Notes: generated by a model not told the origin, from the sequence alone. DNA of 64,000 nt from Pseudomonadota bacterium (GCA_043822785.1 JBDRBN010000074.1:203-64202); one strand, 5' to 3'. Numbered from the stretch's first letter, positions 6,906 to 63,310 are shown. Made by a program: numbers and translations.

Positions 6906-7471
6906 TGCCAAAATCCACGCGTAAGTCCAAGGCCGTCGATTACAATAAGCTCTCACTTCGTCAAACTGTAGCACAGATAAGAGAACACCTCGAGAAAGCT
7001 GGCTTTGACCCGGTGCTCACCGGCAAAGCGTGTGCTGGCGTTTATATGGGCGCGCAGCAAAAGCCCAAGGCCATCGAGTTTGTGGTCAAGGAATACAATG
7101 TCAACGAGCTGGATGATGCCATGAAAAAGATAGGCTTTAAGCTTACGAGCATGAATACGTATGAGAACAAGCGCAGCCCCTTTGATATTGTCTTTTTGCC
7201 GCCACCCCTAACAGTTGGAGACGATCTGGTGGATGATGTGGTCATGGTTAGGGCGCGCCCTGGCAAGGTAAAGCTTCTCAATCCTACCGATTGTGTTCGG
7301 CAAAGGCTCTCGGTGTATTATCGCTGGGGTGATGCTGATGCGCTTGCAGAAGCAGTTCAGGTGGCTAAACGCAATGATATCGACATGGAACTGGTGAAAA
7401 GGTGGTCTGAATGGGAATGGGCTTCGGATAGGTATGAAGAGTTTGTGAAGGCGTTGAAAAGTGATCAGTGA
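6906..7471 (+). CDS. hypothetical protein
   Basis: ORF starting MPKSTRKSK. No confident domain assignment. Confidence 0.4.
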
Positions 7472-7525
7472 CCAGTAACCAGTGATCAGTAATCAGTTTC
7501 GCGAAATACGAATCAGGAGGCTTTC

Positions 7526-12252: not shown

Positions 12253-12415
12253 GCGCGACAAGAGGGGTTCCCGCCACCTTGGCCGCCGAAGAAGTAGTGG
12301 CGGCTAAAACTTCGGCCCTCCACTAAGGCGTCGGCGAGCAGGCGGGCAAGCGAATCCCCTCCCTCGCACCAGACTAGAAGCTAGAAGTTAGAAGCTAGAG
12401 ATTAATGGAGGAATT

Positions 12416-15645: not shown

Positions 15646-15806
15646 TGCTAACGGCTAACGGCTAACGGCTAACGGCAACAGGAGGCATTAGTAAGTTTTA
15701 GGCCGTAAGCGAACGAAGTGAGCGAGCCGTTTGTTGTAAGCGAGTGAAACGAGCGAGCTGTAAGCCGATTGCTCATATTTTTTATGATAAACAGAGAGGA
15801 TTATTC

Positions 15807-26148: not shown

Positions 26149-26220
26149 ATACCAGTAAGAAGCGGATTGCTGCTGGTATGCTTAACTACCAGTGGGAATC
26201 AGCTTGTTGTTGGTAGTTCA
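26149..26220. repeat. direct repeat copy A (~72 bp), pairs with 30383-30455
   Basis: ATACCAGTAAGAAGCGGATTGCTGCTGGTATGCTTAACTACCAGTGGGAATCAGCTTGTTGTTGGTAG has about 80% identity to copy B in the same orientation. Confidence 0.6.
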
Positions 26221-30382: not shown

Positions 30383-30455
30383 TCACCAGTAGAAAGCTGA
30401 TTGCTAATGGTATGCATAATTACCAGTAGGAATCAGCTTCCTATTGGTAGTTTCC
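30383..30455. repeat. direct repeat copy B (~73 bp), pairs with 26149-26220
   Basis: TCACCAGTAGAAAGCTGATTGCTAATGGTATGCATAATTACCAGTAGGAATCAGCTTCCTATTGGTAG. Confidence 0.6.
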
Positions 30456-30967
30456 ATATTTGCGTGATTCACAACTCCTCGAAAAATAGAGGATTCAATT
30501 ATGACAACTGTACAGAATCTGTACAGACTGTATCGATTCTGGTCAGTGTGGAATTCTTGAGAAGGAGGATGTGGTCACAAATTGTGACCAGTTCAGTGCA
30601 TATTCACCATAATATTTGTAATTTCAAGCGCTTACAATCTTGAGGTTCCAAATTGGAACCTCAAAGATGTTTTGAAGAGTTAGAAAAAACAGTTGCCACC
30701 CACGACAAAGCGATCTGCTCTTTATTTGATGCAATAAGAAAGCTGAGGGGGCGGGCTGCTTTCCGCCCCCTCACCCTGAGCGAAGCGCCTGGAAGGACGC
30801 GGAGTCGAAGGGTCCCCCTGCAACCAGTAAAACCTAAGCAAATTGGATTTATAAAAGGAAAAGATGGGTGACTTAGGGTTTCACCACAAATACGAAATTG
30901 GCACTGCTGTCGCGTTAGAGGTGTTAACTGGTTGAAATATAAGAATTCATTTTTCTCATGACTAGGT

Positions 30968-31052
30968 GTCATTGCGAGGAGCGTTTAGCGACGAAGCAAT
31001 CTCCCGCAAACACAGGTTATAAGGGGATTGCTTCGCTTTGCTCGCAATGACA
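30968..31052. repeat. palindromic REP/MITE-like element copy 1
   Basis: GTCATTGCGAGGAGC...CGACGAAGCAATCTCC...GGGGATTGCTTCG...GCTCGCAATGACA. Confidence 0.7.
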
Positions 31053-31123
31053 TCCATGAAAAACAAGCAGTTCTAACGCGACAGCAGTGGTTGCTTGGAA
31101 TTTGGAATTTAAAGTGAGTTTAA

Positions 31124-32032
31124 ATGAAAATCATATCAAAACAGGGTGATCCGAGCTTGGCTGAAGTTTACGTTGCCAGGTTCAGAGACGACGACATGTT
31201 CATGGCAGAGTTTGTGGATGCCCGCGACCCAAGCCTGCCCATAGATAAAAAATGGGTGATAATAGTTTCTACCCAGTTCGGATGCCCCATAGCTTGCCCC
31301 ATGTGCGATGCCGGCGGCGACTACGCGGGCGATCTGAAGGCAGAAGAGATTTTAGCACAAATTGATGCTGTGGTTGAAAAGCATGGGCCACACAGACTTG
31401 CCTCTGCAGAAAAATTTAAGATCCAGTTTGCCAGAATGGGAGAGCCATCACTCAACCCTGCGGTCCTTGATGTGCTTGGGGATCTGCCAGATCGTTATGG
31501 CGCGCCAGGGCTTATCCCGTGCATTGCCACATCAGCTCCGGCAAAGGCCAACGGCTGGTTTGAAAGGCTTAGGGAAATACGGCATGATATATATGATCAT
31601 AGACCCTTTCAGCTTCAGCTCTCAGCCAACTCCACTGACGAGGCTGCGCGCGACAGGCTTATGCCTGTTAAGAAGATGAGCCTTGAGGAGCTTAGCAATT
31701 ACGCTTCGTCCTTTTATCAAAAAGGAGGCAGAAAGATATCGCTCAACTTTGCGCTCACAAAGGGCATTGCTGTTGATCCTATCGTGATCTCAGATCTGTT
31801 TGATCCTGCCTGTACCTGTATAAAGATAACTCCTCTCAACCCCACCATGCGCTCAGAAGAATCCGGCATGGATACAGCTCTTCCACCCAATGCGCCGGAT
31901 GAGGCCAAGAACCTGTGTGATGATCTTATGCAAAGGGGCTTTGATGTGATCCTCTCTATCGGCGATGTGCGCGAAAACGAGATAGGCTCCAACTGCGGCA
32001 TGGCAGTGCGAAAAATGCGCGCAAATGCATAG
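31124..32032 (+). CDS. radical SAM protein (function unknown)
   Basis: FGCPIACPMC is a CxxxCxxC motif. 302 aa. Confidence 0.6.
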   Translation: MKIISKQGDPSLAEVYVARFRDDDMFMAEFVDARDPSLPIDKKWVIIVSTQFGCPIACPMCDAGGDYAGDLKAEEILAQIDAVVEKHGPHRLASAEKFKIQFARMGEPSLNPAVLDVLGDLPDRYGAPGLIPCIATSAPAKANGWFERLREIRHDIYDHRPFQLQLSANSTDEAARDRLMPVKKMSLEELSNYASSFYQKGGRKISLNFALTKGIAVDPIVISDLFDPACTCIKITPLNPTMRSEESGMDTALPPNAPDEAKNLCDDLMQRGFDVILSIGDVRENEIGSNCGMAVRKMRANA

Positions 32033-32117
32033 ATAGCACTTTTCATTGCTCCTGGCATGGTGTTCTGCTACATTTAGCAGTTAGTATCCAAACCAAAACC
32101 ACATAGGTGCCTAACTT

Positions 32118-33416
32118 ATGGAAATCATTACAGCATCCTTTGCCCTGCCCATGACGCAAGACAGCCCTGTGATTAGAGACGGGGCCATTGCAGTTGAGCT
32201 TGGGCGCATACACGCATTTGGAACCAGCCAGGACCTTCAGAAAAAATTTCCTCAGGCGGAGGTAAGGTCCTATCCAAAGGGCGTGCTCATGCCAGGGCTC
32301 ATAAATGCCCACTGCCATCTTGACCTGGTATCTTTTTATAATCCGCAGACATTTCCAACACCTGACGAGACACCTACTGAGGAGCCAGGGGATTTTATTC
32401 AGAACCTGCTCGACACCATTGATTTTAGGCATGATGCCTCGCCTGAGCAGACCATCGAAGGCATACAAAGAGGAATCAACCGCCTCATTGAAACCGGCGT
32501 AACGTGTGTTGGCGACATGACCAATTTTGAGGGCACGTTCAAACTATTGCGAGAAATTGGCCTTCGTGCAGTTGTATTTCCTGAAGTGCTGGCCGGACGA
32601 GGCGAGGCAGCCCAGCAAAAGTTTGAAGTGGCATTGGCGCTTTTAGAAAAATACACTGATATCTCACACAGCCGCATACAGGTGGGGTTGGGGCCATATG
32701 CGCCATACTTGCTCTCGCGCAATTTGCTCAAGATCATAAGCCAGCATGCGCGGGATGCATCGATTCCTTTAATGATTCATGCTGCTGAGACGTTTGCTGA
32801 AATGGAATTTTTCTTTGATTCACAGGGTCCAATAGCTACTGAAATCTTTCCGAACCTAGGCTGGCAGGAGCTACCTCCAGCCCAAAGGATGACACCAGTA
32901 ACCTATCTGGCTGAGATATCCTTTTTTGAAGCGCCAACTACCATCATAGGCGGCCTGCATCTTTCTGCAAAAGACTTTCCTCTCCTGGCTCGCCACTTGG
33001 CAAAGGTTGTGTGGTGCCCCACATACAACAGGCTCATGAAGAACGGCACTTTTCCATATGCAAAGCTTCATGAACACAGCATACCTATCGGACTTGGAAC
33101 AGAGTGCTGGATAGGCAGGATGGGTTTTAACATGTGGAATGAGATGCGCGTGGCAATTCAACCTGAAACAACACAGCCTCCGTCTGCGTGCGAAGCGGTT
33201 CGCATGGCCACAGTCGGCGGCGCACGCGCTTTGGGAGTTGATCACATCACAGGAACTCTAGAAGAGGGAAAGAAAGCAGACTTTATTATAGTAGAATCAC
33301 CGTCCTGGAGCGAAGGCGAAGGCAAAGACGCCCTGTATGCAAGGCTTGTGACAAATACAGAGCCGCACCATGTGCATCATGTGGTAGTGGGCGGAAATAT
33401 ACTGAAATCACTGTAA
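32118..33416 (+). CDS. amidohydrolase-family metal-dependent hydrolase/deaminase
   Basis: PGLINAHCHLDL metal-binding motif near the N-terminus and HAAE later, typical of amidohydrolase-superfamily deaminases. Confidence 0.8.
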   Translation: MEIITASFALPMTQDSPVIRDGAIAVELGRIHAFGTSQDLQKKFPQAEVRSYPKGVLMPGLINAHCHLDLVSFYNPQTFPTPDETPTEEPGDFIQNLLDTIDFRHDASPEQTIEGIQRGINRLIETGVTCVGDMTNFEGTFKLLREIGLRAVVFPEVLAGRGEAAQQKFEVALALLEKYTDISHSRIQVGLGPYAPYLLSRNLLKIISQHARDASIPLMIHAAETFAEMEFFFDSQGPIATEIFPNLGWQELPPAQRMTPVTYLAEISFFEAPTTIIGGLHLSAKDFPLLARHLAKVVWCPTYNRLMKNGTFPYAKLHEHSIPIGLGTECWIGRMGFNMWNEMRVAIQPETTQPPSACEAVRMATVGGARALGVDHITGTLEEGKKADFIIVESPSWSEGEGKDALYARLVTNTEPHHVHHVVVGGNILKSL

Positions 33417-33426
33417 AAGACTTAAT

Positions 33427-33520
33427 GTCATTGCGAGGAGTCCCGTTTTGCGGGACGACGAAGCAATCTCCGTGAGTAATGGAGATCGCCACGCCCGCTG
33501 TTAGCGGGCTCGCGATGACA
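33427..33520. repeat. palindromic REP/MITE-like element copy 2
   Basis: GTCATTGCGAGGAGTCCCG...CGACGAAGCAATCTCC...GGAGATCGCC...GCTCGCGATGACA. Confidence 0.7.
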
Positions 33521-33531
33521 ATCGGTTTATT

Positions 33532-34170
33532 ATGAAAAACATCTTCAAAAAATATTTTCTCGCAGGCTTGGCAGTGCTTCTGCCTTTGGTAATCACGCTT
33601 CTAATATTAAAATTTTTCATAGTGTCGGTTGACCAGCTTGTGATCTCTCTGTTGCCCAAGCGCATCCAGCCAAGCATGTTATTTGGAATAGACATACCAG
33701 GGTTTGGCTTCATAATTACAATCTTACTGATCCTCGCCATCGGAGTGTTCACCCGCCTATATGTAGGGCGAAAGTTTGTGCAACTGGGTGACCGCATCAT
33801 ATCCAAAATACCTATTGGAGCTGGAATATACAATGCCATGAAACAGTTCATGGGCACATTCATCTCAGATAAAGATCAGCAGTTTAAAAGCGTGGTAGTT
33901 GTGGAGTATCCCAGGAAGGGAAGCTGGGTTTTGGGTTTTGTAACAAAGAGCCCAGGCAAGCATATCCTAAACGTGGATGATAGAGAGTGGGTCACAATAT
34001 TTATACCCACAACCCCAAACCCCACATCCGGTTTTTTGATAATGACTCCTGCTGAAGAGACCAGAGCAGTAGATATAACCACAGACGAAGCCTTCAAGTT
34101 CATAATAAGCGGTGGATATATACAGAAGAAAAATGAATCCGCTTCCCTTAAACAAGCACCTGCCCCCTAA
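33532..34170 (+). CDS. DUF502-family membrane protein
   Basis: Two N-terminal TM helices and an architecture similar to DUF502 proteins. Confidence 0.55.
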   Translation: MKNIFKKYFLAGLAVLLPLVITLLILKFFIVSVDQLVISLLPKRIQPSMLFGIDIPGFGFIITILLILAIGVFTRLYVGRKFVQLGDRIISKIPIGAGIYNAMKQFMGTFISDKDQQFKSVVVVEYPRKGSWVLGFVTKSPGKHILNVDDREWVTIFIPTTPNPTSGFLIMTPAEETRAVDITTDEAFKFIISGGYIQKKNESASLKQAPAP

Positions 34171-34249: not shown

Positions 34250-34723
34250 ATGAAAAAGAAAATACCAACAGACATAAAGATAATTGCAAAGAACAAGAAG
34301 GCATTCTTTGACTATCATATTGAAGACAAGTTCGAGGCCGGCCTTGTGCTTGAAGGCAGCGAGGTGAAGAGCCTAAGGGATGGAAAGGCATCTTTATCTG
34401 ACTCTTTTGCGATAATTAAGAATGCAGAAGTATGGCTGTTGCATGCGCACATTGCCCAGTATGCGCCAGCCTCATATGCAAATCACGAACCAAAAAGAGC
34501 GCGAAAGCTTTTGATGCATAAAGCCCAGATCATAAAGCTTACCACAAAGCTAAAGGAGCGTGGATATACGCTCGTGCCCACCATGATCTACTTCAAGAAA
34601 GGCAGGGCAAAGGTGGAATTAGGGGTTGCGCACGGCAAGCGCAAATATGATAAGAGGGCAGCAATAAAGGCACGAGAATCAAAGAGAGAACTATCAAAGG
34701 CGATGAAGCGGAAACATACGTAG
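34250..34723 (+). CDS. smpB: SsrA-binding protein
   Basis: FDYHIEDKFEAGLVLEGSEVKSLR is a conserved SmpB sequence. The tmRNA gene lies immediately downstream. Confidence 0.92.
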   Translation: MKKKIPTDIKIIAKNKKAFFDYHIEDKFEAGLVLEGSEVKSLRDGKASLSDSFAIIKNAEVWLLHAHIAQYAPASYANHEPKRARKLLMHKAQIIKLTTKLKERGYTLVPTMIYFKKGRAKVELGVAHGKRKYDKRAAIKARESKRELSKAMKRKHT

Positions 34724-34872
34724 ATGCAAGCAACGTAACCCCTCTACGTTTCTCGCTTTTCTCGCATGTCTCGCCTTTCTCGCTTTTGTGGTATAATATA
34801 GATGTAGCGGTTCTTTGATAATTGAATATGGTGGCGCCCCCCGAACACTCATCAGCCAGCTGGTGAGCGCTC

Positions 34873-35459
34873 GGGGGGCGAAGAGATTTCGACGTGGACG
34901 ATGGAGTATGCGCGGCATGCCGACCTGTCAGTAAGTCGATAAACTATTGGCAAAACCATTAAGTGCCGAGCCTATGGCTCTTGCTGCCTAACTATAGGTA
35001 GCACGTCAACCGGATGACGCCCGCTAATCCGGAAGACGCCGCTAGCGGGCTTTGCTCTCTCAAGTTCTCCCTGGCACGAAAGAGCAAGACCCAGCAGGGA
35101 TAGCTTAAGCGAAATTCTTTCCTTGGGAGCTCGGTTAAGCGAAACTAAATACAAGGAATAAGCATGTAGAAGCGCACATAAAATCTTCGCGGACGGGAGT
35201 GCGATCAAAGGTCGCCTCGGGAGGTAACTCCCGATGAAAAACCCGGCTTACATCAGGGAAACCCTACCCTTGCGTCGTTCCCGCAAGGCGGGCGATCCTG
35301 AGGGGTGAAAGCCCTGCAGAGACTGTAATGATAGAAGGTACTATCGGAAAACGATAAATCTAAACCTTCTATAATACGCTGGGCTCCCTGTTAAAGGGAT
35401 GAAGAGATAGTCCATGCCGCAATGAAAATTGCGGATCACATGTCTCCCCGCCTCCACCA
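34873..35459 (+). ncRNA. ssrA: tmRNA (ssrA), unusually long
   Basis: 5' GGGGGCGAAGAGATTTCGACG and 3' CGCCTCCACCA can form a 7 bp acceptor stem. An in-frame tag ORF GCA AAA CCA TTA AGT GCC GAG CCT ATG GCT CTT GCT GCC TAA (AKPLSAEPMALAA) lies at 34950-34991. Located directly downstream of smpB. No canonical GGTTCGA T-loop could be found, and the 587 nt length is atypical. Confidence 0.6.
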
Positions 35460-35461
35460 AA

Positions 35462-35505
35462 AAATAGCTCCGCTGATCAGCGGGGCTATTTTTTTATCCA
35501 ATTTC
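35462..35505 (+). terminator. rho-independent terminator after tmRNA
   Basis: AGCTCCGCTGATCAGCGGGGCT palindromic stem followed by ATTTTTTTAT. Confidence 0.55.
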
Positions 35506-35532
35506 TAATTTCTAATTTCAAAGATTTCAATT

Positions 35533-35657
35533 TAATTAGCTGGGAGGGCTGGTTTCGGTTCTAGCACCTCCAGCGGCTCCCCTTTCGCGGTCTCGCTGGA
35601 TGTGGACCCTGCCGCGTCCCGGTGATGAACCGAAACCAGCCCTCCCAGCTAATTAAG
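35533..35657. repeat. perfect 29 bp inverted repeats with 67 bp spacer (hairpin/MITE-like)
   Basis: TTAATTAGCTGGGAGGGCTGGTTTCGGTT ... AACCGAAACCAGCCCTCCCAGCTAATTAA. Confidence 0.8.
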
Positions 35658-35680
35658 CAACGAGCCCTGCCGTTGGTAAC

Positions 35681-35819
35681 GGGTTGTTGGAGATGTTTCG
35701 CGAGCGGCATCAGGAGGCGCTGTGATCTAAGCCTCTTATGCAACAGCGCCGGATGAGCAGGCGATGAGGCGGCGTGTGAGCCGAAGAGCCGTAGCGAGTG
35801 AGACATCTCCAACAACCCG
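35681..35819. repeat. 17 bp inverted repeats with ~105 bp spacer
   Basis: CGGGTTGTTGGAGATGT ... ACATCTCCAACAACCCG. Confidence 0.75.
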
Positions 35820-35929
35820 TCCATAACAAAAAGTGTCGACAGCGTTGAGATGAACGGTAGTTCAGCATACCAACAGCAATCGATCTCTAATTGGTTTTCC
35901 TTGTGTGTCATTTTTGGTAATAAGGAAAC

Positions 35930-36154
35930 ATGCTGCTCATCGCAACTGGACTGCTGTACTGGGATGTATTCATAAGCCTCGTTGGCGTGGGGTTTTTAAT
36001 GTACGGCAAGAAGCGGCCCGATTACCTTGCCATGGCTATTGGTTTGGCGCTCGCGGTTTACCCATACTTTGTTGGCAAAGTCGGCTGGAGCATCGCCATA
36101 GCCGTAGGCATCATAGCTTTATACATCTTCCTAAAGCGCGTCGTCCGCCTCTGA
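35930..36154 (+). CDS. small two-TM membrane protein (74 aa)
   Basis: ORF with two hydrophobic helices. Could be spurious. Confidence 0.3.
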   Translation: MLLIATGLLYWDVFISLVGVGFLMYGKKRPDYLAMAIGLALAVYPYFVGKVGWSIAIAVGIIALYIFLKRVVRL

Positions 36155-36185
36155 ACTCCAAAATTGATTTTGACGTATTTTCTTA

Positions 36186-36647
36186 TCATCCCACCGTTGA
36201 TTCATCATCCATATCTCTGCTGCGGATGCGCATTTCAAAAGTGAGCCCCATTACCCTTAACATTTTCTCTATCATAAAAAGGCTAGGAACCGTTTCTGCA
36301 TGTTCATACCTGGCATAGGCGTTTTTAGACTTAGCTTTTAATAGTCTTGCCATATCATTCTGGCTGAGTTCAGCTCTTGCGCGTTGACGTTTGAGAAGTA
36401 TCGCAATCAAATCCTTTTCGCTCTGTTCGTCCCTTCCGCGAAGCAAAAAAGTATTATTTCTGTGTTTGGCAATATCTGCTTTAAAATTCTTTCGGTTAGC
36501 TGCTGTCTTTAAGAGATCTACGAGCATATCATAGGCATCATCTTTTGTTTGCCCTTGGGTCATAAGATCAAGGTCCGGAACCTCAATTATCCACAATTTG
36601 CCTTCCTTATAAACTCGGCCTCGAAACATAGTCTTTGCTCCTTTCAC
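36186..36647 (-). CDS. hicB: HicB-family antitoxin with C-terminal HTH
   Basis: N-terminal HicB/UPF0150-like domain (KEGKLWIIEVPDLDLMTQGQTKDDAYDML). C-terminal XRE-type HTH. Overlaps hicA by 4 bp. Confidence 0.75.
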   Translation of the reverse strand: MKGAKTMFRGRVYKEGKLWIIEVPDLDLMTQGQTKDDAYDMLVDLLKTAANRKNFKADIAKHRNNTFLLRGRDEQSEKDLIAILLKRQRARAELSQNDMARLLKAKSKNAYARYEHAETVPSLFMIEKMLRVMGLTFEMRIRSRDMDDESTVG

Positions 36648-36859
36648 TCACCTGGATTTTCACTGACTTTCTTTAATATCTTCTTCGCAAGCCCTTCCCC
36701 AATTTCACTGTGCCGTGGGACATATTCTTCGATTTCTCCGTTTGTCCATACATCGTGCTTTCCACCCGATCTTAAGAACCACCATCTATATTTTCTGAGT
36801 CTTTTCTCGAGATCCCTTTTCTTCATATCAAATATACACAAATATGTGTACCCTTTCAA
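36644..36859 (-). CDS. hicA: HicA-family toxin (mRNA interferase)
   Basis: 71 aa. GKHDVWTNG...VPRHSEI is typical of HicA/YcfA. Confidence 0.75.
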   Translation of the reverse strand: MKGYTYLCIFDMKKRDLEKRLRKYRWWFLRSGGKHDVWTNGEIEEYVPRHSEIGEGLAKKILKKVSENPGE

Positions 36860-36883
36860 TAATATTTTCAGTTATGCCTTTCC

Positions 36884-37608: not shown

Positions 37609-39501
37609 CTAAAATAACTTTTGGAGATTGCTTCGCTCCCGCTGGTCGTTCGCAATGACAAAGCAAGGTTTAAGGCCGGTCATTTCCAAAACGCCGCCAT
37701 CCCCTAATTGCGCCAAGGTCTGCATGCTTATCACATCGCCCTCCATGCCTGTGACTTCTGCTATCTCCACGACCCTTCTGCTGCCATCCTCCATGCGCGA
37801 TACCTGAACGATAAGATCAACAGCCCTGGATACTTGCTCGCGAATGGCACGAAGAGGCAGAGCCAAATCCGCCATGAGCACCATGGTTTCAAGGCGCGCC
37901 AAAGCATCTCGCGAAGAGTTTGCATGAACCGTGGTAAGGGATCCCTCATGGCCCGTGTTCATGGCCTGAAGCATATCCAGCGCCTCTGCGCCGCGGCACT
38001 CGCCTACCACTATGCGATCAGGCCTCATCCTAAGAGCGTTTCTTACAAGATCGCGTATTGTTACCTGACCCACGCCTTCGATATTGCAAGGTCTTGCTTC
38101 TAATCTAACCACGTGCGGCAAGTTAATCTTAAGCTCTGCTGCATCCTCTATGGTGATTATGCGCTCTGCATGATCGATCTGCGATGCAAGCACGTTTAGA
38201 AGGGTTGTCTTTCCAGCGCCTGTGCCGCCTGAGACTACGATGGATATGCGCGAGCGCACGCACGAAGACAGAAAGCACGCTGCCTCTATAGAAAGCATCT
38301 TGCATTCCACAGCTTCGTCCATCTTGCTGATAGTGCGTAAGAACCTGCGCACCGTTAGGTGTGGCCCATCGATCGCCAGCGGCGGTATGATGGCGTGAAC
38401 TCTTGATCCGTCTGTGAGCCTTGCATCTGCAAAAGGCGTTGCCTCGTCAATGCGGCGGCCTGCCGGCATAAGCATTCTCTCTATTACTGCCATCAGATGT
38501 TCATCATCATAAAAACTTCCTGATGCGCGCTCGATCCTGCCTCCTCGCTCGATGTATATGTTCTCTGGCCCACAAACCATGATCTCGGTAATATCCGATT
38601 CAGCAAGTAAATGATCTATGGGTCCAAATCCACATGCCTCATCCACAACTTTTGAAACTATTTTTTCAGGCTCTATGTCTTTAATCTGTTCGTGTGAAAA
38701 AGCACCCACTATCCTGCGGGCGCATCGCCCAACCTTATCTCTTTTCGGCTTATCCATGGCCTTAAAGTCGCTGTCCTCCCTAAGGATTCCAAGCGCATCT
38801 CTGACAAGGCCTGTTAGCCGATCGTCTTTTTGCTCTGCTTCAACATGATCGCATTTTTTGGAATGAATCTTTGACAACACTGCTCTTTTTAGAATTTTGT
38901 CAGCCAGATGTTTAGCACCAGCCAAATCGCCCCATGAAGCGATTTTCCATTTGCGCGACAGATGTGATGCAACAGAAAGATCATGCGGAGAAATTACAAA
39001 GCCAGCAGGTCTTGGCGCTCTCTCGTCTTCCAACAACTTTTTTATATTGCGCCCTGCATAAGAGATATCGCCATCTTCAGATGCTTTAACAGAGAAAAGG
39101 GCGGGCATATCTGAAGCATGACGCCTAAGGTTTGCCACAGCGCTTATTTCCAAATCCAACAAATCCTTGGCACGATCCACAGAGATGATGAGTTCATAAG
39201 CCAAAGACAGGCTATGAAAATATTGAGAGTCAAACAGGCCATCGTCCAACATCATCCTTCCGATGCGCGCGCTTCCTGATGCCAAATAGCCACGCAACGA
39301 TTTTGCATCCATACCATTTATATGTGATTTTAAATCTGAAAGGAACCTTACATTTCCATTTGTCCCCTTAGCTCCTAAGGACTCTATGATGAGAACGTTA
39401 ATTCCTCTTGATGATAGCTCTGATGCTGCTTGCAAAGCGGCTATGCTCGCATTGTCACTGTCGTTAACATCGATCGTTGCAAATAAACGGCTCATCACCA
39501 C
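37609..39501 (-). CDS. cpaF: CpaF/TadA-family pilus assembly ATPase with ~250 aa N-terminal extension
   Basis: Walker A VSGGTGAGKTTLLNVL and the conserved CpaF core. The N-terminal extension is not found in canonical CpaF. Confidence 0.85.
   Translation of the reverse strand: MVMSRLFATIDVNDSDNASIAALQAASELSSRGINVLIIESLGAKGTNGNVRFLSDLKSHINGMDAKSLRGYLASGSARIGRMMLDDGLFDSQYFHSLSLAYELIISVDRAKDLLDLEISAVANLRRHASDMPALFSVKASEDGDISYAGRNIKKLLEDERAPRPAGFVISPHDLSVASHLSRKWKIASWGDLAGAKHLADKILKRAVLSKIHSKKCDHVEAEQKDDRLTGLVRDALGILREDSDFKAMDKPKRDKVGRCARRIVGAFSHEQIKDIEPEKIVSKVVDEACGFGPIDHLLAESDITEIMVCGPENIYIERGGRIERASGSFYDDEHLMAVIERMLMPAGRRIDEATPFADARLTDGSRVHAIIPPLAIDGPHLTVRRFLRTISKMDEAVECKMLSIEAACFLSSCVRSRISIVVSGGTGAGKTTLLNVLASQIDHAERIITIEDAAELKINLPHVVRLEARPCNIEGVGQVTIRDLVRNALRMRPDRIVVGECRGAEALDMLQAMNTGHEGSLTTVHANSSRDALARLETMVLMADLALPLRAIREQVSRAVDLIVQVSRMEDGSRRVVEIAEVTGMEGDVISMQTLAQLGDGGVLEMTGLKPCFVIANDQRERSNLQKLF
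37623..37660. repeat. partial palindromic REP/MITE-like element (half copy)
   Basis: GGAGATTGCTTCGCTCCCGCTGGTCGTTCGCAATGACA. Confidence 0.5.
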
Positions 39502-40982: not shown

Positions 40983-41067
40983 GTCATTGCGAGCGAAGCG
41001 AAGCAATCCCCTCAGCAAACGTGTCCGCTGGAGATTGCTTCGTCGCTTAACGCTCCTCGCAATGACA
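40983..41067. repeat. palindromic REP/MITE-like element copy 4
   Basis: GTCATTGCGAGCGAAGCGAAGCAATCCCC...GGAGATTGCTTCGTCGC...CTCGCAATGACA. Confidence 0.7.
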
Positions 41068-43735: not shown

Positions 43736-43849
43736 AAAAACCTCCTTTTGTAGGTTGTGATCTCTTTCCGCTTCCGCATCCGCGTCCGTGCCCGCTACCG
43801 ATAAGTGGTCGGTAGCGGATGCGTGCGCGAAAGCGGACGCGATTAGTAA

Positions 43850-43941
43850 ATGCATGCCTTATGCCAAAGTGGAGTTGTTGTATTTCAATGGGTTAGAAGA
43901 GAGGGGGTGTAGCGATTTGATGCAGGGGTGACGAAATTAGC
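43850..43941. repeat. 92 bp direct repeat (copy 1) flanking the YhcG nuclease gene
   Basis: ATGCATGCCTTATGCCAAAGTGGAGTTGTTGTATTTCAATGGGTTAGAAGAGAGGGGGTGTAGCGATTTGATGCAGGGGTGACGAAATTAGC. Confidence 0.8.
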
Positions 43942-45049: not shown

Positions 45050-45145
45050 CTTTTTTTCCTTGCCCGTGCCCGAGCCCAAAATAGCGAGACCGGCGAGAAA
45101 CGCGAGACACGCGAGAAAGGTAACGGCAACGGGCAAGAGGAGAGA

Positions 45146-45237
45146 ATGCATGCCTTATGCCAAAGTGGAATTGTTGTATTTCAATGGGTTAGAAAATGAA
45201 GGTGTAGTGATTTGATGCAGCGGTAACGAAAAAGTTT
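45146..45237. repeat. 92 bp direct repeat (copy 2) flanking the YhcG nuclease gene
   Basis: ATGCATGCCTTATGCCAAAGTGGAATTGTTGTATTTCAATGGGTTAGAAAATGAAGGTGTAGTGATTTGATGCAGCGGTAACGAAAAAG. Confidence 0.8.
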
Positions 45238-48873: not shown

Positions 48874-49018
48874 TAAGAAAAATGGCCGACCGAAAGAGAG
48901 GCCATTTTTCTTCCTCTATTTTCCATTTTCAATTATCTATTTTCCATCTTTGGGGTCGGCCATTTTTCTGGAAAATAGAAAATGGAGAATAGAAAATGGA
49001 ATGTTAAAGAGCGAATTG

Positions 49019-53499: not shown

Positions 53500-53509
53500 C
53501 CTTTCTAGA

Positions 53510-53617
53510 TGTCATTGCGAGCGAAGCGAAGCAATCTCCTCAACCTCATGAGATTGCTTCGTCGCGGAGCCTACCCTGAGCAACGTCGAAGGGCTCCTCG
53601 CAATGACAATTTGCGAA
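53510..53617. repeat. palindromic REP/MITE-like element copy 5
   Basis: GTCATTGCGAGCGAAGCGAAGCAATCTCC...GAGATTGCTTCGTCGC...CTCGCAATGACA. Confidence 0.7.
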
Positions 53618-53618
53618 T

Positions 53619-55193
53619 CTATAGCCTCACTAATTTTACATCAGTTACCCCATCCACCTCAGCTATTTTTTCAAGCGACTTAGCATCAACCGTCTTATCA
53701 ACTCCTATGATCGTAAGCGCTTCGGTTCCTTGGCTCTTTCTTACGTTCTGCATCTCTGCGATGTTTATGCCCTGACTACCAAGCACCGTGCACACGCCGC
53801 CGATGACGCCAGGCCGATCGACGTTGTGTATGAAGAGTATGGCGCCTTCTGGATCGATCTCCACTCGATATTCACCGCAGTTTGTTATCTTTGTAGTGCC
53901 ATCTGGAAGCACTGCTCCCCAAGCTTCGAACTCGCCCTTGCTTGTCGTAATCTTAATGCCAAAGGCCTCGGCAAAGTCAGGCTTAATGCCTGTTACTTCC
54001 CCTGCAATAGCAACTCCTCGCCCCCTTGCTATCGCTTCTGCATTTACAAATGTGACCTGGCCATCTGAGAGGTGTTCGAACGCTCCTTTGATGGCAGCAA
54101 GCGTGATGAGGCGAGGCAAGCCGCTTTGGCATATAAGGGTGATCTTTGAAATTCCTCCACCTGCGAGTTGAGAGACTAAGGAGCCCAGCTTTTCTGAAAG
54201 CGAGATGTGGTTTTTAAACTTCTGCCAACTTATGCCGTCTGCGCCAGCAAGGTTTACGGCGTTAGGGCTTATGCCCTCGCTGAAGTACTGGGACACAGCT
54301 GCTGCTGCCTCAACTGCCACCGCGTCCTGAGCTTCTGCGGTCGATGCTCCCAGATGCGGAGTGAGTATGCAATTATCCAGCCCCTGAAAGATCGTGTCAT
54401 CAAACGGCTCCTTTGTAAAAACATCCAGCGCTGCTCCAGTGATTCGGCCTTCTTTGAGCGCATTTGCTAAATCGCGCTCGTTTACTATTCCACCGCGAGC
54501 ACAGTTTACGATACACGCCTCTTGCTTCATCATCCCTATTTCCTTTGCCGCGATCAAGTTCTCGGTCTCTTTGGTGAGCGGCGTATGTATGGTGATGTAA
54601 TCCGCCTGGCGGCATATCTCTTCAAGGCCCGCCTTCTTCACTCCTAGTGATTCGAACTTCTCATCTGAAAGATAAGGATCAAAACCTAATACGATCATAT
54701 CAAAGGCCAGCGCTCGTTTCGCAACCTCGTAGCCGATCCTGCCCATGCCGATGATGCCAAGCTTCTTATGAGCTATCTCGCTTCCTTTGAACCGCTTCTT
54801 TTCCCATTTGCCCTCGGCCATGAGCCTGGCTGCTTGGGGAATGTGACGCGCTAGTGCGAGGATCATAGAAAAGGTAAGCTCTGCTGTTGAGGTGGTGTTT
54901 CCTGCGGGCGCATTCACAACCATTATACCCCGTTCAGTAGCTGCATCTATGTCGATGTTGTCAGTTCCAACGCCAGCGCGCGCGATGACCTTTAAGCCTT
55001 TGCCGCGCTCTATTACATCGCGACTCACTTTAGATGAGCTTCGAACGATGAGCCCATCAAAGCCCTCGATCTTGTCTATGAGTTCTTCATGCGAAAGAGA
55101 TGCGCAAAACTCCACTTCTAGATTGGAATCTGCTTCAAGCCTCGCAAGCCCTGACTTTGCAAATCCATCTGTACAAAGTATTCTGTACTTCAT
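53619..55193 (-). CDS. serA: D-3-phosphoglycerate dehydrogenase
   Basis: NAD-binding GIIGMGRIG. 524 aa with a C-terminal ACT domain. Operon with serC. Confidence 0.9.
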
Positions 55194-57245: not shown

Positions 57246-57280
57246 ATCCAATTTCCAATATCCAATTTCTAATTTCGCCT

Positions 57281-59204: not shown

Positions 59205-59314
59205 GGTAAAGCAGATCCTAGATTCTCGATACTCGTAATAGCTTTATTAACAAAATCCCGATCTCAAAAATGAGATCGGGATTTTTGTCTTTAACACTGG
59301 TTACTGATAACTGG

Positions 59315-60904
59315 TCACTGGTCACTGAATTCATACGCGCCCATAGACCAACCAGTAGTTCCATTGCCTGTTCGTGTCTTACCATCCTTGTCAGTGGTAA
59401 ATCCCCAGTTTTGAGCAGGGGCTGCGCCATCAAGCCCGCCTTGTTTTACTGCATCAGGCGATGTGCTAGTTAGATGCAAGCTGTCTCCAAACTTTGGATC
59501 TTCTGATACATTAGCATTTGCCCCTGTTAAGGCATTGACACCTGCAATAGCATTAATCGCAGTTGAACCCTCATCAAAATACAGTGTGGTCTTGCAATTG
59601 AATATATCATTGTTCCTAAGTTCTGTCGGGCTACAATTAACATTGGCTTCGCGTATGCCAAACCCAGAAGTGCTTGCAGGTGCTGATATGATATTGTTTG
59701 CAATTGCAGGCGTGCTTTCACTCTCATTCCAAATGCCAGTGGAAATAGCTCCACTACCGCCATCTATTGTATTGTTATATATCGTCGGTGCACATTTAAA
59801 ATAATTATAGATGCCAAACGCAACATTTCCTTCGCCGCCATTAATGATGTTGTTATATATCTTGGGCAAGGAGTTAGCGTAATTGTAAATAGCAAAGGAA
59901 CCATTTGCACCGCTGCCGCCTTTAATCGAGTTGCCATATATCGTAGGTGATGAACCGTTGAGATTATAAATACCTTGATTTAATGCCGCGCTTCCAGCTT
60001 CGATAGTGTTGTTCGCAATGGTGAGCGCTGAACCATCGTGATTAAATACGCAGGATGAAACATCACCGCCTCCACCTATTATCTTAAACCCATCAATCAC
60101 AGTAGCTGCTGTTATTGCGCTTCCAGCTTCTACAGCAGGATTGGGCTGCTCACCAGTTCCGCCTGTTTGGCTTATCTCTTTGATAATAGTTGTGTTGGTC
60201 ACTGGGTCTCTCATCGCCCAATCAGTATCTGAATAACCGCCATATAAAGATACGCCTTCGGACATCACAACATGACTGCTTCCTGCAGTAACTTCATATG
60301 TACCCTTTGCAACATGCACTTGTGCAGGTGGTACCCAGGTACCATTTTTGAGTTTAGCAGCTGCCTTTGTCACAGCAGCGTTTATGTCGCCCGATTCATT
60401 ATATACGCTTCCATCTCCTGATTTTCCGGATTTTACATAGAATACTTGTACTCCATAAGTCAGACTACCTGATGATGCCTCATCTTCTGTGCTAGATGTT
60501 GAAATCGTGTTACCTTCGCTGTCTTTGCACGTAACCGTCAATGTGCCTGTTCCAATAGTCCAAGCAGTCTTAGGGCTAATTGTTAATGTATCACTCTCAA
60601 CAGCAGTGGTAGACCAAACACCTCCATCGCTTTCGCCTGACATTGTTCCTTCAAGAACTAGAGTGCCCGAGTCTATATGTGTATACGGGCTTGTAATAAA
60701 CTTAACGATGATCTTATCTGTTTTAGCTATTGATGAACCGTCCTTAGGCGTTACCTCACTGATGGCGGGCACTGTTAGGCCTGACGTTATAGGCGTTTGT
60801 TTTTCTTCACTGCCAAAACATCCCAAACCTGCAAAAGCGATACTCGTCACCATAATCACAATAGCGGCTATAATATATCTTTTGAAATAAATGGTATTAT
60901 TCAT
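59315..60904 (-). CDS. secreted right-handed parallel beta-helix repeat protein with N-terminal Ig-like region
   Basis: Signal peptide. Repeated NNxIxGGxG-type motifs (IYGNSIKGGSGA, IYNNIINGGEG, IYNNTIDGGSGA) are typical of pectate-lyase-like beta-helix repeats. Confidence 0.65.
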   Translation of the reverse strand: MNNTIYFKRYIIAAIVIMVTSIAFAGLGCFGSEEKQTPITSGLTVPAISEVTPKDGSSIAKTDKIIVKFITSPYTHIDSGTLVLEGTMSGESDGGVWSTTAVESDTLTISPKTAWTIGTGTLTVTCKDSEGNTISTSSTEDEASSGSLTYGVQVFYVKSGKSGDGSVYNESGDINAAVTKAAAKLKNGTWVPPAQVHVAKGTYEVTAGSSHVVMSEGVSLYGGYSDTDWAMRDPVTNTTIIKEISQTGGTGEQPNPAVEAGSAITAATVIDGFKIIGGGGDVSSCVFNHDGSALTIANNTIEAGSAALNQGIYNLNGSSPTIYGNSIKGGSGANGSFAIYNYANSLPKIYNNIINGGEGNVAFGIYNYFKCAPTIYNNTIDGGSGAISTGIWNESESTPAIANNIISAPASTSGFGIREANVNCSPTELRNNDIFNCKTTLYFDEGSTAINAIAGVNALTGANANVSEDPKFGDSLHLTSTSPDAVKQGGLDGAAPAQNWGFTTDKDGKTRTGNGTTGWSMGAYEFSDQ

Positions 60905-61338: not shown

Positions 61339-61359
61339 ATGAACCCCACTAACTTTTGC

Positions 61360-61431
61360 GTCATTGCGAGGAGCGCCAGCGACGAAGCAATCTCATAGCA
61401 TGGAGATTGCTTCGCTTTGCTCGCAATGACA
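61360..61431. repeat. palindromic REP/MITE-like element copy 6
   Basis: GTCATTGCGAGGAGCGCCAGCGACGAAGCAATCTC...GGAGATTGCTTCGCTTTGCTCGCAATGACA. Confidence 0.7.
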
Positions 61432-61435
61432 ATCT

Positions 61436-63212: not shown

Positions 63213-63310
63213 GTCATCGCGAGGAGCAGAGCACTCAAGGCTTGAGTGCTCTGCGACGTGGCGATCTCCAAGGATTGAGGAGATTGCTTCGGCTTCGCCT
63301 CGCAATGACA
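63213..63310. repeat. palindromic REP/MITE-like element copy 7
   Basis: GTCATCGCGAGGAGC...GGAGATTGCTTCGGCTTCGCCTCGCAATGACA. Confidence 0.65.

What the first reader, a model, noticed from the sequence alone, without database searches (positions are those of the whole stretch)
30968..31052. Abundant 70-110 bp palindromic intergenic element (REP/MITE-like), at least 7 copies in 64 kb
Seven copies are seen at 30968-31052, 33427-33520, 37623-37660 (half copy), 40983-41067, 53510-53617, 61360-61431 and 63213-63310. Each has terminal inverted repeats GTCATTGCGAG(G/C)(A/G)... / ...CTCGCAATGACA. An inner inverted pair CGACGAAGCAATCTCC / GGAGATTGCTTCG follows, then a variable centre. The result is a long imperfect hairpin.

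All copies are intergenic. Some lie between convergent or tandem genes and others directly upstream of start codons. When translated they yield spurious N-terminal extensions such as RFARNDN and LRAKRSNL.

A density of about 1 per 9 kb implies an active or recently active mobilisable element, or a host-maintained regulatory hairpin. It also matters for annotation quality, because it creates false ORFs and false N-termini.
Basis: seen in the sequence. Interest (0 to 1): 0.55.

Follow-up and report, generated by a model that had tools for sequence, protein, structure and literature searches.

The report
Head-to-head REP hairpin repeats (CGTC-type)
The repeats are real and are pairs of small REP-type DNA hairpin units of the already described "CGTC/TGTC-tagged" kind, which entered gene junctions of this uncultured bacterium after it split from its closest sequenced relative; an ordinary class of bacterial repeat whose copying enzyme is still unknown.

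Summary
The window has six palindromic doublets and one solo unit (13 units), against about 1-2 motif hits expected by chance.

The repeating unit is the half element, not a MITE with terminal inverted repeats. Its form is 5'-(T/C)GTC-AT-NNN-GA-[apical hairpin, minimally GCGNAGC]-GAA-N'N'N'-AT-C(Y)C. Both stems covary.

Units occur solo, in tandem, and mostly head-to-head. There is no target-site duplication and no adjacent transposase.

These features fit the CGTC-tagged REP superfamily (Di Nocera et al. 2013; includes Neisseria dRS3 and Rickettsia RPE-4/6). The interrupted stem and variable apex fit none of its four published families.

Exact matches occur in at least 15 bacterial phyla and in phage-like contigs.

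All five testable window sites are empty in the sister MAG, where the genes abut or overlap. So the elements inserted in this lineage.

Two copies are not intergenic. One lies in frame in the cpaC signal-peptide region. The solo unit encodes the end of cpaF.

The mobilising enzyme is not identified. A RAYT-like ssDNA transposase acting in trans is inferred only.

Verdict: a new member or variant of a known kind, of modest interest.

The parts
30968..31052 (.). Head-to-head REP doublet 1: long unit 30968-31001 (+) and short unit 31026-31051 (-). It lies in a long non-coding stretch upstream of the radical-SAM-like gene 31124-32032 and is nested in a larger imperfect palindrome (30887-30919 / 31072-31104).
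   Evidence: (I17)
33427..33520 (.). Doublet 2: a TGC/GCA-stem unit (33427-33468, +) and a CGC/GCG-stem unit (33485-33519, -), each with its own apical hairpin. It lies between the amidohydrolase stop (33416) and the DUF502 gene start (33532). This junction is 3 nt long in the sister MAG.
37623..37660 (-). Solo unit (GTCATTGCGAACGACCAGCGGGAGCGAAGCAATCTCC on the - strand). It supplies the last codons of the cpaF ORF (37609-39501). The relic of the ancestral stop region remains downstream. The sister MAG has no unit here.
40983..41067 (.). Doublet 4, the reverse-complement relative of doublet 1 (87% over 94 nt including the spacer). It is in frame and stop-free between the SD+ATG at about 41099 and the CpaC signal-peptide core. 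The cpaB-cpaC spacer is 5 nt in the sister MAG.
   Evidence: (I1)
53510..53608 (.). Doublet 5: short unit 53511-53536 (+) and long unit 53552-53607 (-). The apex of the long unit carries a nested CCCT-GAG-...-CGA-AGGG module. It lies between the serA stop (53619) and the start of the next gene (53499/53490).
61360..61431 (.). Doublet 6, between the aspS stop (61436) and the cdd start (61338). This spacer is 7 nt in the sister MAG.
63213..63310 (.). Doublet 7: a CGC/GCG-stem unit with a 29-nt apical hairpin (+) and a short TGC/GCA unit (-). It lies between the hisS stop (63325) and the aspS start (63196). These genes overlap (ATGA) in the sister MAG and in the next outgroup.

Best explanation
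The seven loci are REP-type (repetitive extragenic palindrome) units of the CGTC/TGTC-tagged superfamily. Six are head-to-head heterodimers, REPIN/BIME-like. One is a solo unit.

Each unit is a single-strand hairpin made of:
- an unpaired 5' tag YGTC;
- a 5-bp stem, AT-NNN / N'N'N'-AT;
- a GA/GAA internal loop;
- an apical hairpin, minimally the GC-GNA-GC mini-hairpin and often a longer variable stem-loop;
- a short C(Y)C/CCA tail.

Shown:
- the repeat itself, and covariation in both stems;
- the tag-bearing strand folds better than its complement;
- head-to-head is the dominant arrangement;
- there is no target-site duplication;
- insertion occurred after the split from the sister MAG, into very tight or overlapping gene junctions;
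- one insertion is in frame and one remodels a C-terminus.

Inferred:
- The units are non-autonomous elements copied as single-stranded DNA hairpins by a trans-acting HUH/Y1 (RAYT-like) enzyme encoded elsewhere. This rests on analogy with GTAG REPs and REPINs.
- Once inserted they are co-transcribed with the operons, where the long hairpin is tolerated or mildly useful, for example as a 3'-exonuclease barrier.
For: - **Repeat and fold:**
- **Unit definition and arrangements**: 112 head-to-head neighbour pairs, against 20 tail-to-tail, 26 +/+ and 12 -/- same-strand pairs. Tandem arrays occur in L046, L128 and L020.
- **Covariation.** Alternative stem triplets keep complementarity: TCT/AGA 17/20, TCC/GGA 10/14, CCC/GGG 5/6 and CGC/GCG 6/6 in an independent scan.
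- **Formal covariation count** on 134 units chosen without demanding pairing: 95.9% paired, and 34 double-change cells against 3.7 +/- 1.8 (0/500 shuffles).
- **Strand asymmetry:** the tag strand folds better in 300 of 349 units with DNA parameters.
- **No target-site duplication:** longest shared flank word 4.39 against 4.18.
- **Tag:** position -1 is C or T in 97% of doublets.
- **Empty sites in GCA_975961005.1:** hisS/aspS overlap, aspS-cdd 7 nt, cpaB-cpaC 5 nt, cpaF-tadB 3 nt, amidohydrolase-DUF502 3 nt. No unit was found in the 39.6 kb of its two syntenic loci: one was scanned for units (L241); in the other (L256) only four junctions were read.
- **Outgroup:** L242 also has hisS/aspS overlapping.
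- **Literature:** tag variants CGTC/TGTC, AT as the first stem pairs, a 3-nt tail, head-to-head dimers, frequent heterodimers, intragenic copies and no flanking transposase (PMC3733652).
- **Known host of the superfamily:** the element is present in Novosphingobium aromaticivorans, a species that paper lists for CGTC repeats.
Against: - **Published architecture not met.** The four families have perfect 8-9 bp stems and 4-5 nt loops. This family has a 5-bp stem, an internal loop and a variable apex. Its typical translated peptides (VIAS....ARND..LAMT) are absent from that paper's list of intragenic repeats. It is therefore a relative, not a listed member.
- **No transposase found.** None was seen in the window (no transposase-like ORF recognised when the ORF translations were read; only nine ORFs were run against Pfam) or in the loci, and E. 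coli RayT gives no phmmer hit at E <= 10. The mobilising step is unproven.
- **Rest of the MAG unseen.** It could not be searched.
- **Boundaries imprecise.** Filled and empty sites differ by more than the element itself, with 8-20 extra nt.
- **Breadth partly by design.** Cross-phylum identity of the 20 searched bases is built into the search pattern. About 30 chance matches are expected in 596 Gb (my estimate), so single-hit taxa are individually uncertain.
Confidence: 0.72

Rival explanations
1. The element is a host-maintained functional hairpin. On this view it is kept mainly because the transcribed stem-loop, or the DNA cruciform, regulates the flanking operon genes. Possible roles are mRNA stabilisation or processing between cistrons, or binding of gyrase/IHF as at E. 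coli BIMEs. Mobility would be incidental.
For: - The hairpins are strong and both stems covary.
- Five copies sit between co-directional genes, 4-14 nt after a stop codon and 10-21 nt before the next start, leaving the SD free.
- PMC3733652 argues that many such REPs are transcribed.
Against: - The sister genome has the same operons with abutting or overlapping genes and no element at 5 of 5 junctions. No conserved regulatory need is therefore visible.
- Orientation of the long and short unit relative to transcription is mixed, 4:2.
- Copies also occur inside coding sequence.
- There is no U-run, so these are not intrinsic terminators.
- No Rfam family matches.
- The same spacers in other strains hold unrelated palindromes.
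Confidence: 0.13
2. The element is a classical MITE. On this view it is a non-autonomous deletion derivative of a DDE-type insertion sequence, recognised through its 12-bp terminal inverted repeats TGTCATTGCGAG and moved by cut-and-paste.
For: - The ends read 5'-TGT...ACA-3'.
- Total size is 72-108 bp.
- The copies are dispersed.
Against: - Half units are found alone and in same-orientation tandem arrays.
- There is no fixed-length direct repeat at the flanks.
- The 'internal' arms are as conserved as the terminal ones, and each half has its own covarying hairpin.
- No longer element with these ends and a transposase was seen in 2.1 Mb of loci.
Confidence: 0.05
3. The units spread without a dedicated transposase. 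Possible routes are hairpin-primed template switching or gene conversion at stalled replication forks, or the action of a broadly conserved host ssDNA enzyme. That would explain why nearly the same sequence is found in many phyla.
For: - No associated transposase was found here or in PMC3733652.
- Exact 20-base matches occur in at least 15 phyla, in Patescibacteria and in phage-like contigs.
- The apex matches the very stable DNA GNA mini-hairpin d(GCGNAGC). That property is from my own knowledge of the DNA-hairpin literature and was not tested here.
- Extra nucleotides accompany the insert at filled sites.
Against: - No such mechanism is documented for REPs.
- GTAG REPs, the closest analogues, have a proven cognate nuclease.
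- A preprint links the Neisseria dRS3 repeats, a CGTC-type family, to a RAYT through co-decay (10.1101/2021.07.10.451892).
Confidence: 0.1

Closest known systems
CGTC-tagged REP superfamily (families CGTC-1 to -4; Di Nocera, De Gregorio & Rocco 2013, BMC Genomics 14:522, PMC3733652). It includes Neisseria dRS3 and Rickettsia RPE-4/RPE-6.
   Same: - An unpaired 5' tag CGTC/TGTC.
- A stem opening with A-T, T-A.
- A short C-rich tail (CCA/CTC).
- Mostly head-to-head dimers, often heterodimers.
- Mostly intergenic, with occasional in-frame intragenic copies.
- No flanking transposase.
- Presence in Alphaproteobacteria (Bradyrhizobium, sphingomonads), Bacteroidota and others.
   Different: - The published families have uninterrupted 8-9 bp stems and 4-5 nt loops, for example GTCATTCCCGCGAAAGCGGGAATC.
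- This family has a 5-bp stem, a GA/GAA internal loop and a modular apex from GCGNAGC up to about 30-nt hairpins.
- Its signature peptides are not in that paper's lists.
- It was seen here in many more phyla, at least 15 against 5.
REPIN-RAYT systems / E. coli REP-BIME (GTAG-tagged REPs)
   Same: - Short hairpin units with a conserved unpaired 5' tetranucleotide.
- Inverted doublets that fold into one long hairpin and appear to duplicate as a unit. Doublets 1 and 4 share spacer similarity (I1).
- No target-site duplication.
- An intergenic habitat.
   Different: - The tag is YGTC, not GTAG.
- No cognate RAYT was found.
- As a control, RAYT genes from Neisseria, Chloroflexota, Kovacikia and Gloeocapsa are flanked by GTAG REPs, not by YGTCAT units.
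- REPIN sequences are lineage-specific, whereas this sequence recurs across phyla.
MITEs such as Correia/NEMIS, ERIC, Nezha
   Same: Size of about 70-110 bp, palindromic, dispersed, co-transcribed with neighbouring genes.
   Different: - MITEs have terminal inverted repeats matching a parent IS, and target-site duplications.
- Here the half unit is autonomous in distribution and no duplication is seen.

Membership tests
CGTC-tagged REP superfamily (PMC3733652) | Unpaired 5' tag CGTC, allowed variants TGTC/CCTC | tested here: met
   The window has 12 TGTC and 1 CGTC. Among 580 heads in all loci the preceding base is C in 288 and T in 253. In 106 doublets it is C or T in 97%.
CGTC-tagged REP superfamily (PMC3733652) | Stem begins with complementary A-T and T-A pairs | tested here: met
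   All 13 window units read GTC-AT...AT-C. Note that these positions were fixed in the search patterns used for other loci.
CGTC-tagged REP superfamily (PMC3733652) | Short unpaired 3' tail, consensus CCA | tested here: met
   The tail after ..AAT is C-CAG in 108 units and C-TC(A/C/G/T) in about 150 units. The window uses CTCC/CCCC.
CGTC-tagged REP superfamily (PMC3733652) | Continuous stem of 8-9 bp with a 4-5 nt loop (families 1-4) | tested here: not met
   The structure is a 5-bp stem, a GA/GAA internal loop, a 2-bp stem and a 3-nt loop, or a longer apical hairpin. It therefore sits in the superfamily by tag, tail and arrangement but is not one of the four listed families.
CGTC-tagged REP superfamily (PMC3733652) | Predominantly head-to-head dimers; tail-to-tail rare | tested here: met
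   112 head-to-head against 20 tail-to-tail neighbour pairs within 200 nt. All six window doublets are head-to-head heterodimers.
CGTC-tagged REP superfamily (PMC3733652) | No transposase gene flanked by the units | tested here: met
   No recurrent neighbouring protein family was found in 120 genome loci. ORFs bracketed by units are unrelated to one another. No RayT homologue was found. The sample is limited to 2.1 Mb.
REPIN-RAYT system | Cognate single-copy RAYT (Y1 HUH transposase) flanked by the same REPs | not testable with these tools
   It is absent from the 64-kb window and the fetched loci. The rest of the source MAG could not be searched.
REPIN-RAYT system | GTAG head on the REP | tested here: not met
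   The head is YGTC. Control RAYT loci show GTAG REPs.
REPIN-RAYT system | Inverted REP doublet that folds as one hairpin and replicates as a unit | tested here: met
   Fold z-scores are -5.7 to -8. Doublets 1 and 4 are 87% complementary over 94 nt including the spacer.
MITE (DDE transposon derivative) | Target-site duplication of fixed length at the flanks | tested here: not met
   The longest shared word between the flanks is 4.39 against a control of 4.18. No adjacent direct repeat is seen.
MITE (DDE transposon derivative) | Element moves only as the complete TIR-bounded unit | tested here: not met
   Solo and tandem half units are common.
Rickettsia palindromic elements (RPE) | Sequence match to RPE domain models; in-frame insertion in ORFs | tested here: inconclusive
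   No NCBIfam hit for ten translated frames at E <= 10. However, one in-frame doublet lies in cpaC and one unit forms the cpaF C-terminus. RPE-4/6 consensus sequences could not be read.
Rfam RNA families / intrinsic terminators | Match to a curated covariance model, or a hairpin followed by a U-run | tested here: not met
   No hit at the gathering threshold or at E <= 10 over 30900-33600. No T-run follows the doublets.

The most novel reading that the evidence does not exclude
This may be an undescribed fifth family of tagged REPs and the most cosmopolitan one. The unit GTCAT-TGC-GA-[GCGNAGC or a variable hairpin]-GAA-GCA-ATC is kept almost base for base in at least 15 bacterial phyla, in Patescibacteria and in phage-like contigs. 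It has no linked RAYT. That pattern would point to mobilisation, or selection, by a widely conserved ssDNA-processing activity rather than by a lineage-specific domesticated transposase.
Probability: 0.25. Interest if true: 0.6.

Novelty: new member of a known kind. Interest (0 to 1): 0.3.

Why it matters
**Annotation.** The element seeds spurious ORFs on both strands, for example 53509-53775 and 61356-61610. It also misleads start-codon choice. In cpaC, though, the read-through is probably genuine, so blanket trimming would be wrong.

**Biology.**
- REP doublets can land exactly at overlapping or abutting gene boundaries of housekeeping operons (hisS-aspS-cdd, the tad pilus genes) without breaking them.
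- The window adds a clean filled/empty data set for a REP class whose copying mechanism is unresolved in the literature.
- If the cross-phylum conservation reflects a shared enzyme, this family would be a good handle for finding it.

Tried and rejected
- **Rfam:** no family at the gathering threshold over the whole window, or at E <= 10 over 30900-33600.
- **Hammerhead-like reading of 'GAG-stem-CGAA':** rejected, because CUGANGA is absent and there is no Rfam hit.
- **Literature text searches** for the DNA strings and the spurious peptides: only primers and noise.
- **Exact-protein look-ups of window proteins:** not on record, so the source contig could not be extended.
- **Neighbour enrichment around copies:**
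  - In IMG/VR loci only ordinary phage structural genes recur.
  - In genome loci only housekeeping families recur.
  - ORFs bracketed by units are heterogeneous.
- **E. coli RayT against all ORFs of the window and the fetched loci:** nothing.
- **RayT tblastn against plasmids/chromids:**
  - RAYTs were found in Neisseria, Chloroflexota and cyanobacteria.
  - All are flanked by GTAG REPs, none by YGTCAT units.
  - None lies on the Novosphingobium, Methylosinus or Methylocystis replicons that carry this element.
- **NCBIfam scan of translated copies for RPE domains:** nothing.
- **High-identity filled/empty pair in Novosphingobium plasmids:** the orthologous spacer holds a different palindromic repeat in each strain, so there is no clean empty site.
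- **Imperfect direct repeats around some window insertions** (for example TATGAATAAAC / AATGAATAGAC at hisS-aspS): noted, but not supported as a general target duplication.
- **Ogata 2002 RPE paper:** not available.

Full report
**1. Observation**

- GTCATTGCGAG at up to 1 mismatch occurs 13 times, against 1.6 expected. None of 100 dinucleotide shuffles reaches 13.
- The inner arm GGAGATTGCTTCG occurs 12 times, against 2.6 expected.
- A fuzzy two-part search finds the same sites, one chance hit, and no extra copies.
- Each doublet folds as a long imperfect hairpin with z-scores of -5.7 to -8.0.
- All copies lie between 30.9 and 63.3 kb. None lies in the first 30 kb.

**2. Anatomy**

The element is best described by its half. 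A unit reads 5'-(T/C)GTC-AT-NNN-GA-[apex]-GAA-N'N'N'-AT-C(Y)C.
- In the shortest form the apex is GCGNAGC, a 2-bp stem closing a GNA triloop. The middle base is free: CGAAGC 62, CGCAGC 23, CGTAGC 13, CGGAGC 12.
- In longer forms the apex is a variable hairpin of up to about 30 nt, whose stem sequence differs from copy to copy.
- Every window doublet pairs one short unit (25-27 nt) with one long unit (32-55 nt), head to head.

Across the window and 246 loci:
- Head-to-head neighbours number 112, mostly with 14-34 nt between the tails. Tail-to-tail pairs number 20.
- Same-orientation tandem arrays also exist: L046 with period 33, L128 with period about 50, and L020.
- Solo units are common.

This is the organisation of REP/BIME/REPIN elements, not of a MITE.

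**3. Structure is under selection**

- Minority stem triplets keep their complement: TCT/AGA 17/20, TCC/GGA 10/14, CCT/AGG 8/12, CCC/GGG 5/6.
- An independent scan forcing C at the first variable position returned six units, all CGC...GCG.
- On 134 distinct short units chosen without requiring complementarity, the structure .....(((((..((...))...)))))..  .. (31 columns) gave:
  - 95.9% paired cells;
  - 34 cells with changes on both sides, against 3.7 +/- 1.8 in shuffles (0/500);
  - the best score among slid controls.
  - Both helices show compensatory changes.
- The tag-bearing strand folds better than its complement in 300 of 349 distinct units with DNA parameters, and in 303 of 349 with RNA parameters. 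So one specific strand is the folded form.
- From my own knowledge, d(GCGNAGC) with a GNA triloop is an unusually stable DNA mini-hairpin. That fits a single-stranded DNA intermediate, but it was not tested here.

**4. Distribution**

- The pattern GTCATTGCGAG-N(4-34)-GAAGCAATC reached the 120-locus reporting limit in both IMG/VR and the GTDB species genomes.
- Genome hits come from:
  - Alpha-, Gamma- and Deltaproteobacteria-type lineages;
  - Campylobacterota (Helicobacter rodentium);
  - Bacteroidota (Pedobacter, Mucilaginibacter, Flavobacterium, Chryseobacterium, Hymenobacter);
  - Ignavibacteriota, Chloroflexota, Cyanobacteria and Melainabacteria;
  - Patescibacteria, Planctomycetota, Omnitrophota and Zixibacteria;
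  - Latescibacterota, Gemmatimonadota, Armatimonadota and Bacillota (Sporomusa).
  - These include isolates and complete genomes.
- I estimate roughly 30 chance matches for this pattern in 596 Gb. Single-hit taxa are therefore individually uncertain, but many loci carry 2-6 matches in the canonical arrangement.
- In the plasmid/chromid collection the doublet is found in Novosphingobium (at least 40 places on one 1.76-Mb replicon), Methylosinus, Methylocystis, Halomonas and Legionella. It is never annotated.

**5. Source and insertion polymorphism**

- AspS of the window is 100% identical to a protein of a MAG labelled 'Pseudomonadota bacterium'.
- The nearest genome on record, GCA_975961005.1 (AspS 87%, CpaC 81%), is syntenic over both regions examined.

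| Junction | Sister MAG | Window |
|---|---|---|
| hisS-aspS | genes overlap (ATGA) | doublet 7 |
| aspS-cdd | 7 nt apart | doublet 6 |
| cpaB-cpaC | 5 nt apart | doublet 4 |
| cpaF-tadB | 3 nt apart | solo unit |
| amidohydrolase-DUF502 | 3 nt apart | doublet 2 |

- The window thus carries an element at each of these five junctions.
- No unit was found in the sister's two loci (39.6 kb): L241 was scanned for units; in L256 only four junctions were read.
- A more distant relative (78%) also has hisS/aspS overlapping. The empty state is therefore ancestral, and the window lineage gained the elements.
- Other lineages carry unrelated palindromic repeats at the same junctions. Three Novosphingobium strains hold three different REP types in one spacer. 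Such junctions are recurrent landing sites.
- Flanks show no target-site duplication.
- Filled sites contain 8-20 nt beyond the recognisable unit. Exact boundaries therefore cannot be drawn at this divergence.

**6. Two copies are not intergenic**

- *Solo unit.* It follows codon ...CCT TGC TTT of cpaF and provides the new C-terminus (VIANDQRERSNLQKLF*). The relic of the old stop region (ATGAGATAA) is still visible downstream.
- *Doublet 4.*
  - It is stop-free in exactly one of three frames on the gene strand.
  - That frame links a strong SD (AGGAGG) plus ATG, just after the cpaB stop, to the CpaC signal peptide.
  - Homologues start MKR followed by about 14 hydrophobic residues and AxA.
  - In the window, the hydrophobic core (IHFLIILMAAILILPATHAQA) begins immediately after the element and upstream of the only internal ATG, which has no SD.
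  - Read-through of the doublet as a basic 29-residue insert in the signal-peptide n-region is therefore more likely than a spurious extension.
- In-frame REP insertions are known for this superfamily (Rickettsia RPE; PMC3733652).

**7. Comparison with the literature**

Di Nocera et al. 2013 (PMC3733652) defined CGTC-tagged REPs by:
- the tag CGTC, often TGTC;
- stems opening with AT;
- a 3-nt tail near CCA;
- mostly head-to-head dimers, with heterodimers frequent;
- intragenic copies;
- presence in five phyla with a bias to Alphaproteobacteria;
- no transposase gene flanked by them.

All of these match. Their four families, however, have continuous 8-9 bp stems and 4-5 nt loops. From their Additional file 3, CGTC-1 is GTCATTCCCGCGAAAGCGGGAATC (VIPAKAGI) and CGTC-3 encodes VIAGLDPAIH. 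The peptides typical of the present family are absent from their tables. I therefore place it in the superfamily as a further family or variant, not as one of CGTC-1 to -4. Figure 2 of that paper, which holds the consensus sequences, could not be read.

**8. The mobiliser**

- A preprint (10.1101/2021.07.10.451892) treats the Neisseria dRS3 repeat (ATTCCCGCGCAGGCGGGAATC, which is CGTC-1) as a REPIN population. It ties that population to a Group 2 RAYT through co-decay in N. gonorrhoeae.
- In my check, that RAYT pseudogene is flanked directly by GTAG REPs. A dRS3 doublet lies 140-240 nt upstream. Position alone does not support the link.
- RAYTs in Chloroflexota and two cyanobacteria are likewise flanked by GTAG REPs.
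- No RayT homologue lies in the window or in the fetched loci.
- No transposase-like ORF was recognised when the window's ORF translations were read; only nine ORFs were run against Pfam.
- Mobilisation by a trans-acting Y1/HUH enzyme remains an inference from analogy: hairpin plus unpaired 5' tag, strand asymmetry, and no target duplication.

**9. Verdict**

The MITE/TIR description, the 'all intergenic' statement and the 'spurious N-terminus' for cpaC need correcting.
- The element belongs to a described class, so it is not categorically new.
- Of some value are the distinct architecture of this family, its very wide distribution, and five clean gain events at tight gene junctions.
- Interest is modest.

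Noticed in passing
window 7460-7497, 12374-12399, 15647-15676, 35500-35519, 48971-49001, 57247-57276, 59295-59327: Short tandem arrays of heptamers sit in intergenic spacers. Examples are AGTGATC x5.4, CTAGAAG x3.7, GCTAACG x4.3 perfect, AATTTCT, GAAAATA and TCCAATT. They resemble cyanobacterial STRR repeats. Some arrays are reverse complements of one another (7446-7497 against 59295-59333).
   Followed up: partly
window 26151-26218 / 30385-30452, and 43834-43936 / 45130-45231: Two further dispersed repeats are unrelated to the finding. One is a 68-nt repeat at 84% identity. The other is a repeat of about 100 nt at 88-90% identity, lying upstream of two adjacent minus-strand genes.
   Followed up: no
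window 34250-36860: smpB (34250-34723) is followed by tmRNA (34882-35198). About 330 nt further on is a perfect 30-nt inverted repeat (35532-35561 / 35627-35656). Small HicA/HicB-like ORFs (36186-36859) come next. This may be a small islet inserted at ssrA. The sister MAG has different genes between smpB and tadB.
   Followed up: no
window 30887-30919 / 31072-31104: Doublet 1 is nested inside a larger 33-nt imperfect inverted repeat (79%). PMC3733652 reports insertion of REP dimers into pre-existing palindromes for other families.
   Followed up: partly
window 53553-53607; L056 and L062: The apex of the long unit of doublet 5 holds a nested module, CCCT-GAG-CAACGT-CGA-AGGG. It follows the same 'stem-GAG-X-CGA-stem' grammar. 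Similar GGAGNNTACCCTGAGC motifs recur in unrelated contigs. This may be a second, related repeat family that inserts into the first.
   Followed up: no
window 1-64000: GC skew is positive up to about 24 kb and negative after it, and gene strand switches at about 19 kb. All REP copies lie on the negative-skew side. This could mark a replication terminus or origin region, or it could simply reflect operon layout.
   Followed up: no
L244 9880-10000; L257 13600-13810; L259 and L260 (Novosphingobium): Relatives carry other, unrelated palindromic repeats at the very junctions that hold the CGTC-type doublets in the window or in N. aromaticivorans. An example is CCCCTCTCCC...GGGAGAGGG. Tight gene junctions appear to be recurrent landing sites for different REP families.
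   Followed up: partly
L261 (N. gonorrhoeae chromosome filed as a plasmid, NZ_CP119142.1 1072163-1074035): The frameshifted Group-2 RAYT is bracketed by GTAG REPs (GTAGGTCGGATTCTCGAATCCGAC). The dRS3 (CGTC-1) doublet lies 140-240 nt upstream. Which repeat this RAYT serves therefore looks unsettled.
   Followed up: partly
L015, L036, L077, L003 (IMG/VR contigs): Some phage-like contigs carry a unit or doublet between almost every gene, with 5-6 in 6-13 kb. Phages may therefore be a vehicle for spread between hosts, unless these contigs are misclassified cellular DNA.
   Followed up: no
window 172-2013: A large ORF has internal 90-nt tandem repeats (422-804) that encode HEAT/PBS-lyase-like repeats. 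The sister locus also has HEAT-repeat proteins nearby.
   Followed up: no
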